IMG/VR virus record: IMGVR_UViG_2660238499_000001
Strand: one strand, 5' to 3'
Origin: a virus
Taxonomy: Duplodnaviria; Heunggongvirae; Uroviricota; Caudoviricetes
DNA: 8,922 nt
Shown here: piece after piece, positions 1,391 to 8,004 of the stretch
Layout: each line of letters opens with the position of its first letter
Numbering within the stretch: position 1 is the first letter of the stretch
Position numbers and translations under genes: made by a program
Notes under the pieces: generated by a model
Told to the model about the DNA's origin: nothing
The model's database searches: none
What the model saw: only the letters and a program-made list of their open reading frames with translations

Positions 1391-1699
1391 TTAATATACG
1401 ATCTGGTCTACATGATTACCAAAATCATCGTCGTCGTCCTCATCGCCACCATCTACAGATGGCCAATCAACAAACCAGCCAGCGTAAAGATGCAGCGTTC
1501 GGAGAACATCACTTGCGGGAGCATCAAGGGTGTTAACGAATCCCATATAGCTATTGGGATTTGCCCCAGCTATGGCTTCAGTGATCATGTCCTCGGTAAT
1601 GTCACCGGAGATAATGCTTAAACGCCCGGAAACTTCTTCATTATCATCAAATTCGATAATGGCATCTCCGCCTAATGGCGCTGCGATTTTAATCTGCAT
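1391..1699 (-). CDS. Small highly acidic hypothetical protein (102 aa), last gene of the operon
   Basis: Strong SD (AAGGAG, 7 nt spacer) before the ATG at 1697-1699. The start lies inside the 3' end of the upstream gene (ATGcagatTAA overlap). By hand count about 22 Asp+Glu vs 3 Lys+Arg, including a DGGDEDDDDD run. Confidence 0.7.
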   Translation of the reverse strand: MQIKIAAPLGGDAIIEFDDNEEVSGRLSIISGDITEDMITEAIAGANPNSYMGFVNTLDAPASDVLRTLHLYAGWFVDWPSVDGGDEDDDDDFGNHVDQIVY

Positions 1700-4676
1700 T
1701 ATTTAGCTCCTTTGCCACACCTAATAACAGTTCCAGCAATCCGTCACCATTCATCAGTGATGCGGCAGCGGCCTCTTTGTCATGATACAACTGAAGAGCC
1801 ATAGAGAATACTTCCGTTGCTGACGTTTTGGAAATAGTCGGTGATTTCTGCCGAATTTTCCCGGTGTTACTTACTGAGGCTGGCGGGTATACCTTCGCCA
1901 TATAAATATTACTCAATCGAGATCTGAAGCACCATTCAGGCTTGCCACGCCCACCGATATTAACGAAAGATGGCTTATCCCCTTCAACATTGGCCTTCAG
2001 AAATGACCGGGCTTTCTCTAACAAACCAGGGTTACTGTACTCAAGATGATGACCCAGCTCGTGCCACAGTGCACTTGCATTTTCATCGTTCAAATTGACA
2101 GCAACAACACCATTAAGATTTGCATATGCCCTTCCCTGGTGGTGAACCACCTTTGATAAGGTCGAAATTTTACCGCCGGTCAGGCGATAAATATCAGCAA
2201 GTTCCTTGCGCAGGTCTATCCCACCATTCTGTCCAGCGCGAGCTTCTTCCACTTCTTCCGTGATAAAAGAGTCGGCCCACTCAAGAGCTTTTTCTTCAGA
2301 TACGGATGAGTTTGCGATCGCACTGTTCATGGCAGATAACACTTTCTCGTGGACCGAACCCATACTTCGCTGATTCATTTGCCAGCGTGTCTGCGGGTTA
2401 TATGAGAATCGCTTAAGTAGTTGGTCAAGCTGCTCAAGTTCTTCTTCACTGACATACTTTTTAGCCTCACCAATAATGCCAGGGAGAATATTGCCGTTAG
2501 GATTAAACGCTCGCGAAAGGAAGAGTTTCAGCGCCCCTATGCCCTCCGATGCTTCAATATCACCAATAACCCGGTTAACAATGGCCGCACTCTTCGGATT
2601 AGCATCCGCCAACGCTCTGGCTACGATTTGCAGGGACGATACGACCTCACGCTGCATATCAGTCCTGATCTCATCAATAAACTCTGGCGTTATGCCGTGC
2701 TCTTTAAGGATATCCCGGCCTTCCGCCGTTACCCCATCGATATCACCGACATGTTTATTAACACGGCTTTGCAATGCCTTAAATGCCTTCAGAATTCCAC
2801 GGGCATCATCCGCTTTACTAACGGCCTTCCTGAATGCTGGCAAGAAGTCTGAGTTAACCTCATTTTGTTGATCGGCCCACTGAATGGAGGCTTCTTTCAT
2901 CTCGTCCAGAGTCAGATCACCCAACGCGGTATGGTCTGTGAATATGAGCGACAACCTCTGAACCATTTCTGCCAATGGTGATGCCGAATGCGCCGCGCTA
3001 AGGAATGCTTTCACCCTGGTTGGGCGAATGGAAAACCAGTCAATAGCTGGTGGCATATCTCCGTTTTTTATCGCCTGCGCTATCTCGTCAAAGCCATCGC
3101 GCCCAAGGGAGGATGCGTGATTTAACAAGCCGCGAAGTAACGAATTGCTGATACCGAATAATCGGCACCATTTTTTCACGTCGGCAACAGGCATTCGAAC
3201 AAAATGCGCAAGCACTTGTACAAGCTGTTCATCCTGGGGATCTGTGCGGGAAAGCAGCCTGATCAGATGAATAATGTCTTTGATGCCGGATGCCCGATGT
3301 AATAGCAAACTGGTATACGGAGCAACACCGTTGTAACTACCGCCGGAAACGGACTCGAAAAGACCGCCGGATATCCCTTGCATGCCTTCGTATTCCAGTT
3401 CCTGAGACACCTGGCGAAGGATATCCTGTAACGACACATCGCCGCCGCCAAACATATCCCCCAGCGCCTGGCCCTGGTGCTGTAACTCATCATTGATACG
3501 TTGAGCCATCAACTTAAAGGCGGTGGCCATACGCTTCGCGCTACGGTTATTCGCGACGATGAACAACGCGAGTGCTTTCACTTCCGGGGCCGTTTCGCTG
3601 AACATATCCCCCTGAGCAATAACATCGGTAATATGCTGGCCTGACTCCTTCGATTGCCTTACCAGGTCTACCGCATCTTTCAATGCCGCCAGCGCCTTTT
3701 TATCGAGGCTATCCGCTGTCTCAATGCCATCAACAATAGTTGTCACAGCCTGCTTGTGCGCTTCTCCTGATAAAGCCTGCATCTGGACAAAATCATTGGC
3801 TGCCGCATTAAGCGCCGTCAGAACATTACGCATATCCGGATCAGGTTCTTCTGCAACCATCCTTACCAGGCGCGCATCCTTATATGCCTTGGCAAAGATC
3901 GCGTTTTGTATACGGTCTACAAGTTGCCGTGTTGGTCGCCCATCTTCCGTTACAAGGCCAGCAGCCTGTGTGGCACCAACTTGCGTCATGAATCCGCGAA
4001 TAAACGCGTCATTACTGCGGCTAAGCAGATCTCCGCTTTCTGACGGGTTAAACAACGCCATCATCGCCGGTGTTATGCTGTCGGCATCAACAAAAGCCTT
4101 TTCACTGGCTGCCATTTCCTGGAGATCAGAAATATTTGAGTCCTTGGCAAACTGAACACGGTCAACCTTCGTTAACCGGCGGCGCACCAGTACCGGAGCC
4201 GTCATTGATTCAACCTTTTCAGGCCGTATGCCGAATTCGGTCGCATGTTCAATCAGGTACTCCCGATACCGATCCGCATTACCGTCCTGATAGGCTTTAA
4301 TGATCCCCATGGTCCGCCCATTACCTGACTCAACGGCATTGTCCTCACCAATTATTGGCGCGCCATGGCTGGATAAACCGGAATCGGTAAGCTGGGCAGG
4401 ACGCAAATCCTTGGATATCTGGTTGACCTGAAGAAGGCTGGATGCGCGGGTCCGGTCGCGCGGCTGAAGTTCCTGGGGATAGTCTGGATTAATTTTCCCA
4501 TCCAGAGTATTGGATACCAAAAGAACTGAGGCATCGACGATATCAAACGCTGTTTTTACCTCGTCTCCCTTCGCTGTCACCACATACGAAACCCGCCCAT
4601 AATCGGGCAGGTTCTTTAGCAGCTCGATCAGCGTTTCTATGCTGGTGGCCATTACCACCTGATCGCTTAAGCTCAT
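1689..4676 (-). CDS. ddrB: Large multidomain protein (995 aa), DdrB-like; C-terminal HELGH zinc-metallopeptidase-like motif
   Basis: Uninterrupted 2988-nt ORF, 12 nt downstream of the preceding gene's stop. Size and position match P1 DdrB (~109 kDa) as I recall it. HExxH motif WHELGHHLEY at residues 871-880 (coords 2037-2066). Symbol assigned by synteny and size, not alignment. Confidence 0.8.
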   Translation of the reverse strand: MSLSDQVVMATSIETLIELLKNLPDYGRVSYVVTAKGDEVKTAFDIVDASVLLVSNTLDGKINPDYPQELQPRDRTRASSLLQVNQISKDLRPAQLTDSGLSSHGAPIIGEDNAVESGNGRTMGIIKAYQDGNADRYREYLIEHATEFGIRPEKVESMTAPVLVRRRLTKVDRVQFAKDSNISDLQEMAASEKAFVDADSITPAMMALFNPSESGDLLSRSNDAFIRGFMTQVGATQAAGLVTEDGRPTRQLVDRIQNAIFAKAYKDARLVRMVAEEPDPDMRNVLTALNAAANDFVQMQALSGEAHKQAVTTIVDGIETADSLDKKALAALKDAVDLVRQSKESGQHITDVIAQGDMFSETAPEVKALALFIVANNRSAKRMATAFKLMAQRINDELQHQGQALGDMFGGGDVSLQDILRQVSQELEYEGMQGISGGLFESVSGGSYNGVAPYTSLLLHRASGIKDIIHLIRLLSRTDPQDEQLVQVLAHFVRMPVADVKKWCRLFGISNSLLRGLLNHASSLGRDGFDEIAQAIKNGDMPPAIDWFSIRPTRVKAFLSAAHSASPLAEMVQRLSLIFTDHTALGDLTLDEMKEASIQWADQQNEVNSDFLPAFRKAVSKADDARGILKAFKALQSRVNKHVGDIDGVTAEGRDILKEHGITPEFIDEIRTDMQREVVSSLQIVARALADANPKSAAIVNRVIGDIEASEGIGALKLFLSRAFNPNGNILPGIIGEAKKYVSEEELEQLDQLLKRFSYNPQTRWQMNQRSMGSVHEKVLSAMNSAIANSSVSEEKALEWADSFITEEVEEARAGQNGGIDLRKELADIYRLTGGKISTLSKVVHHQGRAYANLNGVVAVNLNDENASALWHELGHHLEYSNPGLLEKARSFLKANVEGDKPSFVNIGGRGKPEWCFRSRLSNIYMAKVYPPASVSNTGKIRQKSPTISKTSATEVFSMALQLYHDKEAAAASLMNGDGLLELLLGVAKELNNAD

Positions 4677-7574: not shown

Positions 7575-8004
7575 CTGACACATCCTGTGCGAGATTTATT
7601 ACGTAACTTCTGCGGATTTGCTGAGTAACAGGGAAAATCCGATACAACGGGTTAATGAACGAGTCGCCATGCGTAACTATGACGTTGAAATGCCACAGTC
7701 GCTCTCCTTTACCCATATATTCAGTGGGTATGTACAACCATTCACTGTTTTCGCCCTGTTCAGCCGACGTCAGACAACGTTGTTCGCCTTCAATCACTGT
7801 CGTCGGCTTCTGAACATCGCGGATCCAATATCTGACCGTTGCGCCGCGCAAAAACGGGAATTTAGACCGGTATTTGAACGGCACCCGGATGAAATCCGGT
7901 TTAATTTCCACATCACCAAGTTCTAAATGCGTGATGTCCTTGCGTTTTAGCAAATAGCGATCGGCTAAGGCTAACGCAAGAACGCATACACCCCAGCCAA
8001 TCAT
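7561..8004 (-). CDS. lydB: LydB-like lysis regulator (antiholin-like), 147 aa
   Basis: ATG overlaps the holin-like gene stop (ATGA at 8001-8004). One N-terminal hydrophobic segment (MIGWGVCVLALALA), then a soluble domain. Position after the holin gene matches the P1 lydA-lydB arrangement as recalled. Confidence 0.65.
   Translation of the reverse strand: MIGWGVCVLALALADRYLLKRKDITHLELGDVEIKPDFIRVPFKYRSKFPFLRGATVRYWIRDVQKPTTVIEGEQRCLTSAEQGENSEWLYIPTEYMGKGERLWHFNVIVTHGDSFINPLYRIFPVTQQIRRSYVINLAQDVSDDEK

What the first reader, a model, noticed from the sequence alone, without database searches (positions are those of the whole stretch)
1391..7583. Capsid-packaged antirestriction module (hdf-darA-ddrA-ddrB plus an acidic ORF) fused to the lysis cassette in one operon
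Five consecutive minus-strand genes are tightly coupled, with overlapping or near-touching stops and starts. Their order and sizes (200-203, 639, 121, 995 aa, then 102 aa) match the P1 darA operon as I remember it. In P1 these proteins are packaged in the head and injected with the DNA to protect it from type I restriction; the mechanism is unknown. Any domain-level clue here is therefore valuable, and the trailing 102-aa acidic ORF may be an unrecognised extra component.
Basis: partly seen in the sequence, partly recalled or inferred. Interest (0 to 1): 0.7.

Follow-up and report, generated by a model that had tools for sequence, protein, structure and literature searches.

The report
Phage P1 darA antirestriction-lysis operon
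This stretch is a near-identical copy of the long-studied darA operon of phage P1 (lysis genes plus head-packaged anti-restriction proteins), so it is ordinary; the only loose end is its last small acidic gene, hxr, whose database label "repressor" is probably wrong.

Summary
Window 1391-7583 (minus strand) carries five intact, tightly coupled genes. They are P1 hdf, darA, ddrA, ddrB and hxr at 96-99% protein identity. lydA-lydB and the P1 late promoter LPdar lie directly upstream; the promoter region is 100% identical to P1. A conserved terminator hairpin follows hxr.

This operon was sequenced in 1998 (AJ000741) and is present in more than 500 P1-like plasmids. Its assembly hierarchy was dissected genetically in 2017. 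DarA-Hdf has since been solved by cryo-EM (PDB 9ukm/9vz0).

The "unrecognised" 102-aa acidic ORF is the named P1 gene hxr, annotated as a possible Xre-like repressor. That annotation is not supported. Hxr has no HTH, a net charge of -19, a predicted alpha/beta domain followed by a poly-Asp tail, and no fold relatives.

Hxr is conserved as the last gene of the operon even at about 40% identity. Its Shine-Dalgarno sequence and an 11-14 nt overlap with ddrB are also conserved. It co-occurs with full-length DdrB and is absent where DdrB lacks its C-terminal half (phage D6). It has never been tested as a Dar component. That is a modest lead, not a discovery.

The parts
8359..8377 (-). LPdar late promoter: -10 hexamer at 8359-8364 and the P1 late '-22' box at 8369-8377
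   Evidence: Coordinates were transferred from the P1 annotation (offset 1208). Window 8320-8410 is 100% identical to the P1 region.
8001..8330 (-). lydA, the holin; first gene of the dar operon
   Evidence: 109/109 aa identical to P1 LydA. Matches Pfam Phage_holin_3_3.
7561..8004 (-). lydB, the LydA antagonist (antiholin)
   Evidence: 143/147 aa identical to P1 LydB. Matches Pfam LydB at E 3e-102. Overlaps lydA by 4 nt and hdf by 23 nt.
6972..7583 (-). hdf: an internal head protein that pairs with DarA on the inner capsid surface
   Evidence: 201/203 aa identical to P1 Hdf. Pfam DarA_N at residues 13-109. PHROG 1620. Matches PDB chain 9ukm_H. An alternative ATG at 7574 gives 200 aa and has a better-spaced AGGA.
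5051..6970 (-). darA: an internal head protein, head-size determinant and nucleator of Dar protein packaging
   Evidence: 629/639 aa identical to P1 DarA. Pfam DarA_N at 66-204 and DarA_C at 411-472. NCBIfam NF052326 equivalog scores 1091 bits against a cutoff of 350. Matches PDB chain 9ukm_I.
4689..5054 (-). ddrA: a small acidic virion protein of the Dar system
   Evidence: 119/121 aa identical to P1 DdrA; pI 4.07. PHROG 1855, 'DdrA-like anti-restriction protein'. No Pfam match.
1689..4676 (-). ddrB: a polyvalent virion protein with an N-terminal DdrB-type ParB domain and a C-terminal HExxH metallopeptidase region
   Evidence: 982/995 aa identical to P1 DdrB. Pfam ddrB-ParB at residues 36-167, E 5e-39. 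HELGH at residue 872 lies inside an invariant WHExGHHxExSNP block across about 45%-identical homologs.
1391..1699 (-). hxr (ORFVIII, the '102-aa acidic ORF'): last gene of the operon, function unknown
   Evidence: 98/102 aa identical to P1 Hxr. AAGGAG lies 7 nt before the ATG, and the gene overlaps ddrB by 11 nt; both features are conserved in distant loci.
1290..1326 (-). Operon terminator: a 12-bp hairpin (1295-1326) followed by UUUCU
   Evidence: RNA fold. Conserved with P1, apart from one C/U difference in the hairpin loop. Falls within the terminator annotated in AJ000741, which maps to window 1288-1361. An IS1-family element abuts it at 1291.
8398..8679 (-). lydC, an accessory holin. It is a separate monocistronic unit upstream of LPdar and is not part of the dar operon.
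   Evidence: 91/93 aa identical to P1 LydC. Described as monocistronic with a predicted early promoter in PMC9025707.

Best explanation
The region is the darA (dar) late operon of a P1-like phage-plasmid, essentially the P1 allele.

Shown by sequence: lydA-lydB-hdf-darA-ddrA-ddrB-hxr form one translationally coupled minus-strand unit. The unit runs from the P1 late promoter LPdar to a hairpin terminator just after hxr.

Established for P1 in the literature and transferred here by 96-100% identity:
- LydA and LydB time lysis.
- Hdf and DarA enter the procapsid first. They sit as 55 pairs at the penton-hexon junctions of the inner capsid wall, touch the packaged DNA, and favour large heads.
- The proteins leave the head with the DNA and protect that DNA in cis from type I restriction (EcoA; EcoB/EcoK through DarB, Ulx and DdrB) and from BREX.

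Inferred here for hxr: it is not an Xre-type repressor. It is a small DdrB-linked accessory protein made of an alpha/beta domain of about 80 aa and a disordered poly-Asp tail that ends in a hydrophobic motif. Its most likely role is as a partner (chaperone or inhibitor) of the C-terminal, metallopeptidase-bearing half of DdrB in the producing cell. I rate this sub-claim at roughly 0.3-0.35. It is the least secure part of the explanation.
For: Identity with P1:
- 98.3% DNA identity over 7.57 kb.
- Per-protein identity of 96-100%.
- Family matches for DarA, Hdf, DdrB, LydA and LydB.
- LPdar region identical to P1; terminator hairpin conserved.

Mechanism, from the literature: PMC12810830, PMC9024508, PMC12707154, PMC9025707, PMC5512222 and bioRxiv 10.1101/2025.11.26.689930.

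Hxr is not an HTH protein:
- No Pfam hit even at E<=10, and no NCBIfam hit.
- The AlphaFold model has pLDDT of about 85-90 over residues 1-80 and is beta-beta-beta-alpha-alpha-beta.

Linkage of Hxr to DdrB:
- In the two distant loci read in full (L089, L091) and in Cronobacter phage JK004, hxr follows ddrB. The remaining distant loci also show an upstream ORF ending 11 nt into hxr. Hxr identity there is about 37-45% by BLAST, or 29-42% in the alignment. The overlap with ddrB is 11 nt (14 nt in L091 and JK004), and AAGGAG sits at the same spacing.
- All 20 phage records with full-length DdrB have Hxr. Phage D6, whose DdrB is the N-terminal 454 aa only, has none.
- In plasmids, Hxr is in 504 records and the DdrB C-terminal half in 512, against 608 for the N-terminal half.
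- All 90 hxr copies examined are intact, and dN/dS is 0.3-0.45.
Against: For the operon identity there is no evidence against.

For function in this particular element:
- The second Dar operon (ulx-darB) lies outside the window and was not seen.
- The element carries IS insertions nearby (cin is truncated by IS26), so it may no longer be a viable phage.

For the Hxr sub-claim:
- No interaction was tested.
- The co-loss of Hxr and the DdrB C-terminal half rests on essentially one lineage (D6-like).
- hxr evolves faster than the other dar genes (in L091, Hxr is 42% identical against 59-79% for the others).
- An hxr homolog survives in L003 next to only a 25-codon remnant of ddrB.
- The P1 CRISPRi screen scores hxr as nonessential, like every dar gene.
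- Hxr was not reported among the 27 virion proteins.
Confidence: 0.95

Rival explanations
1. Hxr is what the databases say: an Xre-like transcriptional repressor that happens to sit at the end of the dar operon.
For: The P1 genome annotation reads 'possible repressor; homolog of Xre; aa 23-80 28 pct identical'. The label has been propagated to SJ46, RCS47, JL22 and the mcr-1 P7-like plasmid.
Confidence: 0.03
2. Hxr is a seventh injected Dar component: an acidic DNA-mimic (Ocr/ArdA-like in principle) that is packaged in the head, or rides on DdrB, and titrates type I restriction enzymes on entry.
For: Extreme acidity, concentrated in a poly-Asp tail of 4-9 residues. Conserved membership of the antirestriction operon. 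Its absence from the virion LC-MS/MS is weak evidence: trypsin yields only peptides of 4, 22, 41 and 35 aa, so the two-unique-peptide cutoff is hard to meet.
Against: Hxr is not among the proteins found in purified virions. It has no structural resemblance to Ocr, ArdA or any other solved protein. Dar protection acts only in cis on the co-packaged DNA, which argues against a freely diffusing enzyme-titrating mimic. Only about 20 residues are hyper-acidic, far less surface than known DNA mimics have (from my own knowledge of Ocr and ArdA).
Confidence: 0.12
3. Hxr is a general acidic assembly chaperone. Its poly-Asp tail occupies the positively charged DNA-binding faces of Hdf/DarA (or the DdrB ParB domain) in the cytoplasm, so these proteins do not stick to DNA before they enter the procapsid. 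It is displaced when DNA is packaged.
For: The N-terminal domains of DarA and Hdf present a positively charged DNA-contacting face. The acidic tail ending in a hydrophobic/aromatic residue resembles the competitor tails of SSB and T7 gp2.5 (from my own knowledge). Late co-expression.
Against: Phage D6 keeps hdf, darA, ddrA and the ParB half of ddrB but has no hxr. Those proteins therefore do not need Hxr. The coupling is specifically to the 3' end of ddrB.
Confidence: 0.1
4. hxr is a weakly selected passenger ORF with no role in the Dar system, kept only because it overlaps the end of ddrB and the terminator.
For: It has the highest dN/dS of the operon's structural genes (0.3-0.45). The family is narrow: only about 10 clusters in 1.8 billion representatives. 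CRISPRi scores it nonessential.
Against: The domain architecture, the invariant residues (P8, G53, V65-L66-R67, W75, W79-P80), the acidic tail and the strong Shine-Dalgarno sequence persist at about 30-45% identity. There was no frameshift or nonsense allele among the 90 copies, despite a slippage-prone GAT/GAC tract. A tandem-duplicated version exists (P0015).
Confidence: 0.2

Closest known systems
Bacteriophage P1 darA (dar) operon, GenBank AJ000741 / NC_005856 gp021-gp027
   Same: Gene content, order, lengths and overlaps match. The late promoter region is identical and the terminator hairpin is conserved. Identity is 98.3% at the DNA level and 96-100% at the protein level.
   Different: There are 31 amino-acid substitutions over the five genes. 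The flanks differ. A divergent IS1-family element abuts the terminator where P1 has isaB. The cin gene beyond lydC is cut by IS26.
Dar operons of divergent P1-like elements (Cronobacter phage JK004, Citrobacter sp. NCU1 contig, metagenomic loci L089/L091)
   Same: Same seven-gene order, including hxr, with an 11-14 nt ddrB/hxr overlap.
   Different: Protein identity is only 28-79%. The genes downstream of hxr differ (ssb, or genes of unknown function).
Phage D6 dar operon (MF356679)
   Same: holin-lydB-hdf-darA-ddrA-ddrB order.
   Different: D6 DdrB is 454 aa, the ParB-containing N-terminal half only, and there is no hxr. Two unrelated ORFs follow.
Polyvalent virion/transfer proteins with a C-terminal zincin metallopeptidase (Iyer et al. 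2017, PMC5512222)
   Same: DdrB has the DdrB-type ParB domain and an HExxH block in its C-terminal region.
   Different: No small acidic downstream partner has been described for that class. Hxr homologs were found only next to P1-type full-length DdrB.
Small acidic partner proteins encoded immediately downstream of, and overlapping, an enzyme gene, such as colicin DNase immunity proteins. This is an analogy from my own knowledge.
   Same: Size (about 85-100 aa), acidity, and a position that overlaps the end of the larger gene.
   Different: There is no sequence or fold similarity, and no evidence that DdrB is toxic or that Hxr binds it.

Membership tests
P1 Dar system, darA operon | DarA ortholog (internal head protein with DarA_N and DarA_C domains) | tested here: met
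   629/639 aa identical to P1 DarA. Pfam DarA_N and DarA_C. NCBIfam equivalog NF052326 scores 1091.6 bits against a cutoff of 350. Matches PDB 9ukm_I over the full length.
P1 Dar system, darA operon | Hdf, DdrA and DdrB orthologs in the order hdf-darA-ddrA-ddrB | tested here: met
   201/203, 119/121 and 982/995 aa identical to the P1 proteins. PHROGs 1620, 1855 and 2299. The order matches the P1 annotation.
P1 Dar system, darA operon | Co-transcription with lydA-lydB from the phage late promoter LPdar, ending at the terminator after ORFVIII | tested here: met
   The promoter region is 100% identical to P1. Gene junctions range from a 23-nt overlap to a 12-nt gap. The hairpin is conserved. This is sequence-level evidence only; transcription was not measured.
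P1 Dar system, darA operon | Proteins packaged in the head, ejected with the DNA, protecting it in cis from type I restriction | not testable with these tools
   Known for P1 and inferred here from 96-99% identity.
P1 Dar system, darA operon | Companion ulx-darB operon present in the same element | not tested
   It lies outside the 8.9-kb window.
Xre-type HTH repressors (the database label of Hxr) | Helix-turn-helix DNA-binding domain (HTH_3 or related) | tested here: not met
DNA-mimic antirestriction proteins (Ocr, ArdA) | Extended, highly acidic surface that mimics B-DNA, and sequence or fold similarity to Ocr or ArdA | tested here: not met
   Hxr is acidic overall (net -19), but 9 of the negative charges lie in a 20-residue disordered tail. 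There is no structural or sequence match to any solved protein.
DNA-mimic antirestriction proteins (Ocr, ArdA) | Present at the moment of DNA entry, through early expression or packaging | tested here: inconclusive
   Hxr sits in a late operon. It is not in the published virion proteome, but it has too few tryptic peptides for that to be decisive.
Zincin-like metallopeptidase polyvalent proteins (DdrB class) | HExxH catalytic motif in a conserved C-terminal domain, plus an N-terminal effector domain | tested here: met
   HELGH at residue 872 lies within an invariant WHExGHHxExSNP block in five homologs of 43-46% identity. ddrB-ParB at residues 36-167. No Pfam peptidase model matches, so the assignment rests on the motif and on PMC5512222.

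The most novel reading that the evidence does not exclude
Hxr is a genuine, so far untested seventh component of the P1 Dar system. It would be an orphan-fold acidic protein, translationally coupled to DdrB, that controls the C-terminal metallopeptidase half of DdrB (its processing or packaging), or that is itself delivered with the DNA. If so, the 'putative repressor Hxr' label on hundreds of P1-like plasmids is wrong.
Probability: 0.3. Interest if true: 0.5.

Novelty: already known. Interest (0 to 1): 0.2.

Why it matters
As a finding it matters little. The darA operon is a textbook P1 locus, and this copy adds no new biology.

The useful by-product is a correction and a testable lead. hxr is the one gene of the operon that has never been examined. 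It is very probably mis-annotated as a repressor. Its conserved coupling to full-length DdrB points to a cheap experiment: an in-frame deletion, a DdrB western blot, and EOP on type I hosts. That could close the parts list of the Dar system, whose biochemical mechanism of protection is still unresolved.

Tried and rejected
- Xre/HTH assignment of Hxr: rejected.
- Paralogy between the two small acidic proteins Hxr and DdrA: hhalign probability 0.1%, rejected.
- Large-protein hits to the Hxr profile (P0022, P0025, P0026): on inspection these are internally repetitive proteins whose repeats inflate the score. Treated as chance.
- The first Hxr model, built from 5 close sequences, was too poor (pLDDT 59.8) and was replaced by the 10-sequence model.
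- The generic terminator scan missed the operon terminator because its U-tract is short. It was found by folding and by the AJ000741 annotation.
- Key papers could not be read: Piya et al. 2017 (PMC6011833), Lobocka et al. 2004 (PMC523184) and Iida et al. 1998. What I say about them comes from citing papers or from memory, and is marked as such.
- A DdrB search against solved structures found nothing.
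Full report
**1. Observation**

The ORF table of the window contains the five minus-strand ORFs described:
- 6972-7583 (203 aa)
- 5051-6970 (639 aa)
- 4689-5054 (121 aa)
- 1689-4676 (995 aa)
- 1391-1699 (102 aa)

Junctions run from a 1-nt gap to overlaps:

| Junction | Spacing (nt) |
|---|---|
| hdf/darA | +1 |
| darA/ddrA | -4 |
| ddrA/ddrB | +12 |
| ddrB/102-aa ORF | -11 |

Two further coupled genes lie upstream, at 8001-8330 and 7561-8004. They overlap each other by 4 nt, and the second overlaps the 203-aa ORF by 23 nt.

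**2. What it is**

Megablast against phage records shows that window 1292-8865 is 98.3% identical to P1 (NC_005856 24146-31718). It is 97-99% identical to other punaviruses, including P7, SJ46, RCS47 and JL22.

Laid on the P1 annotation, the genes read in transcription order: lydC | LPdar | lydA, lydB, hdf, darA, ddrA, ddrB, hxr.

Protein identities to P1:

| Protein | Identical residues |
|---|---|
| LydA | 109/109 |
| LydB | 143/147 |
| Hdf | 201/203 |
| DarA | 629/639 |
| DdrA | 119/121 |
| DdrB | 982/995 |
| Hxr | 98/102 |

Family searches agree:
- Pfam finds DarA_N and DarA_C in DarA, DarA_N in Hdf, ddrB-ParB in DdrB, LydB, and the LydA holin family.
- The PHROGs for Hdf-like and DdrA-like antirestriction proteins match.
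- The NCBIfam equivalog "antirestriction phage head protein DarA" scores 1091 bits against a cutoff of 350.

The same block is present in more than 500 P1-like plasmids.

**3. Operon boundaries**

The 91 bases around the annotated P1 late promoter LPdar are 100% identical to P1. In the window, the -10 is at 8359-8364 and the -22 box at 8369-8377.

After hxr there is a 12-bp hairpin (1295-1326) followed by UUUCU. It is conserved with P1, apart from one C/U difference in the loop. It lies inside the terminator annotated in the original darA-operon entry AJ000741.

So the "fusion" of lysis and antirestriction genes in one late transcript is real. It is also the published definition of the dar operon. 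PMC9025707 describes the late dar operon as encoding LydA, LydB and antirestriction and capsid-morphogenesis functions, with lydC as a separate upstream unit. From memory, Iida et al. 1998 (Virology 251:49) already listed eight ORFs in this operon.

**4. How it works (from the literature, transferred by near-identity)**

[quoted passage not shown] They protect the co-packaged DNA in cis from type I R-M systems and from BREX (PMC12707154; PMC12810830).
- LC-MS/MS of purified P1 virions detected DdrB, DdrA, DarA, Hdf, DarB and Ulx (PMC9024508).
- Hdf and DarA are incorporated first and are needed for all the others. Without them, small heads predominate.
- Cryo-EM placed 55 DarA-Hdf pairs at the penton-hexon junctions of the inner capsid wall. 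Their basic N-terminal domains touch DNA, and they are gone from heads that have emptied.
- An independent preprint reaches a similar picture.
- The corresponding PDB chains (9ukm, 9vz0) match the window proteins over their full length.
- The step that actually blocks the restriction enzyme is still not known.

**5. Domain-level clues already exist**

Iyer et al. 2017 (PMC5512222) made three relevant points:
- They defined the DarA-N domain shared by DarA and Hdf.
- They defined the DdrB-type ParB domain.
- They described a C-terminal zincin metallopeptidase in DdrB, which they proposed to process DdrB to its reported 76-kDa form.

In the window protein, the motif HELGH sits at residue 872. 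It lies in a block, WHExGHHxExSNP, that is invariant across homologs only 43-46% identical. A basic patch follows it: residues 901-950 have a net charge of +9.

**6. The trailing acidic ORF is hxr**

The ORF is not unrecognised. It is ORFVIII of AJ000741 and hxr/gp021 of the P1 genome, annotated "possible repressor; homolog of Xre" on the basis of 28% identity over about 58 residues. The label has spread to many records.

I tested the label, and it fails:
- No Pfam family matches at E<=10, and no NCBIfam family matches. The only PHROG hit is a family of unknown function.
- With a 10-sequence alignment, AlphaFold gives a confident domain (pLDDT about 85-90 over residues 1-80). Its order is beta-beta-beta-alpha-alpha-beta, followed by a disordered tail at 83-102. 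That is not a helical HTH bundle.
- A net charge of -19 is also implausible for an operator-binding protein.

**7. Comparative anatomy of Hxr**

The word-indexed search found only close P1-like copies plus one homolog at 59% identity. The exhaustive HMMER search of 1.8 billion representatives added six genuine distant clusters of 96-100 aa and a tandem-duplicated 184-aa form. Those clusters are 29-42% identical to the window protein in the alignment.

All share the same plan:
- a domain of about 80 aa with invariant P8, G53, V65-L66-R67, W75 and W79-P80;
- then G-G-D-E and an acidic tract of variable length;
- then a hydrophobic C-terminus (IVY, FVY, LLY, IVN or VVN).

Among 90 copies recovered from viral, genome and metagenome contigs, the poly-Asp run varies from 4 to 9 residues. 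It is always in frame, and no copy is disrupted.

Context is equally conserved.
- Three divergent loci were read in full or nearly so: the Citrobacter NCU1 contig, L089 and L091. Cronobacter phage JK004 is a fourth, taken from its annotation. In all four, the order holin-lydB-hdf-darA-ddrA-ddrB-hxr is kept while the other Dar proteins have fallen to 28-79% identity.
- Shorter contigs (L088, L090, L092, L093) show only the end of an upstream ORF running into hxr.
- hxr starts 11 nt before the upstream stop codon (14 nt in L091 and JK004).
- AAGGAG sits exactly 7 nt before the ATG in each of these loci.
- The genes after hxr differ between lineages.
- dN/dS against P1 is 0.45 for hxr, or 0.31 pooled over 21 alleles. 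For the other dar genes it is 0.05-0.19. Hxr is therefore constrained, but less tightly.

**8. A natural experiment**

In the phage collection, all 20 records with a full-length DdrB also have Hxr directly downstream. Phage D6 keeps lydA, lydB, hdf, darA and ddrA, but its DdrB is only 454 aa, the N-terminal ParB-containing half. It has no hxr; two unrelated ORFs follow.

Plasmid counts show the same pattern:

| Query | Plasmid records |
|---|---|
| Hxr | 504 |
| DdrB C-terminal half | 512 |
| DdrB N-terminal half | 608 |

The excess for the N-terminal half is the 60-80% identity band, which I take to be D6-like. Hxr thus tracks the metallopeptidase-bearing half of DdrB rather than the operon as a whole. 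This rests on essentially one lineage, so it counts as suggestive only.

**9. Reading of Hxr**

My preferred inference, at about 0.3, is a DdrB-linked accessory protein that acts in the producing cell. It might hold the C-terminal peptidase region in check, or chaperone it until DdrB is docked on the DarA-Hdf scaffold. The acidic tail could engage the basic patch next to the HExxH block.

Rivals:
- **An injected acidic DNA mimic.** This stays possible, because Hxr yields only one convenient tryptic peptide (fragments of 4, 22, 41 and 35 aa). The two-unique-peptide cutoff of the virion proteome could easily miss it. Against it, Dar acts in cis, and Hxr has no similarity to Ocr or ArdA.
- **A general chaperone for the DNA-binding faces of Hdf and DarA.** Against it, D6 manages without Hxr.
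- **A weakly selected passenger ORF.** Against it, the conservation of architecture, Shine-Dalgarno sequence and reading frame.
- **The annotated Xre-like repressor.** Effectively excluded.

None of these was tested experimentally. As far as I could find, hxr has only been covered by a CRISPRi screen, which scored it nonessential like all dar genes.

**10. Surroundings**

The P1 homology is bounded by mobile elements.
- **Left flank, 1-377.** This encodes the C-terminal 121 aa of an IS2-like (IS3-family) transposase.
- **Left flank, 533-1291.** This is a divergent IS1-family element. InsA is about 44% identical to P1 IS1, and the InsB similarity is split over three frames, which suggests decay. 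It is 96.5% identical to an IS1-family copy in a Rac prophage record. It abuts the terminator 5 nt after the hairpin and replaces the isaB gene found there in P1.
- **Right flank.** Only the first 19 codons of cin remain (8807-8863), before an IS26 end at 8866-8922.

The dar operon itself is untouched.

**11. Verdict**

The finding is a correct recognition of a well-known locus. It is not novel, and most of the "valuable clues" it hoped for are already published. Interest is low. The residual value is the re-evaluation of hxr: it is mis-annotated as a repressor, conserved, coupled to full-length DdrB, and untested.

Noticed in passing
window 8807-8922: The C-segment invertase gene cin is cut after codon 19 (MLIGYVRVSTNEQNTALQR) by an IS26 end, whose terminal inverted repeat GGCACTGTTGCAAA starts at 8866. 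This element has probably lost tail-fibre (host-range) switching.
   Followed up: partly
window 533-1291: A divergent IS1-family element. InsA is about 44% identical to P1 IS1, and InsB similarity is scattered over three reading frames, so the element is probably defective. It sits 5 nt after the dar terminator hairpin, where P1 has isaB. It is 96.5% identical to an IS1-family copy in a Rac prophage record.
   Followed up: partly
window 1-377 (and AT-rich 378-532): The 3' end of an IS2-like (IS3-family) transposase gene: NCBIfam 'IS2 transposase TnpB', E 2.5e-52. About 155 bp of AT-rich sequence of unknown origin follow it, before the IS1-family element.
   Followed up: partly
window 1409-1450 (Hxr residues 84-97); loci L005-L087: The poly-Asp tract of Hxr varies from 4 to 9 residues among 90 otherwise near-identical copies, and is always in frame. 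A few alleles carry an entirely different C-terminal tail, for example DEEVFSDETVNQLLY in L086/L087 and the P7-type tail.
   Followed up: partly
P0015 (184 aa); L003 2024-2326: A tandem-duplicated Hxr protein exists, in which only the second copy keeps the long acidic tail. In L003, a 59%-identical hxr homolog with a TTG start sits next to a 25-codon remnant of ddrB and near a dinI-like gene. In that decayed locus hxr has outlived ddrB.
   Followed up: no
L094 (phage D6, MF356679) 5992-8416: D6 and roughly 100 D6-like plasmids carry a DdrB that ends after the N-terminal half (454 aa). They lack both the metallopeptidase half and hxr. Two unrelated ORFs (185 aa, and a 110-aa basic protein that starts with a hydrophobic, signal-like segment) follow.
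   Followed up: partly
window 7561-8004 (lydB): Against P1, lydB has 5 nucleotide differences, 4 of them non-synonymous (dN/dS about 1.1). The neighbouring lydA is identical to P1. The numbers are too small to interpret.
   Followed up: no
window 3724-4155 (+ strand, inside ddrB): The antisense ORF that P1 annotates as iddB (132 aa in P1) is open here for 143 aa, because its stop codon differs. I saw no evidence that it is a real gene.
   Followed up: no
plasmid NZ_CP034659.1 (454 kb), hits H98/H155/H158: This large E. coli plasmid carries alleles 100% identical to the window's Hxr and DdrB. There, however, ddrB is broken near residue 905, and hxr lies about 43 kb away on the other strand. This points to an IS-mediated rearrangement of the same P1-like element.
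   Followed up: no
window 7574-7583 (hdf start): Two in-frame ATGs give Hdf of 203 or 200 aa. The downstream ATG has a better-spaced AGGA, and some homologs are annotated at 200 aa. The literature and the PDB use 203.
   Followed up: no
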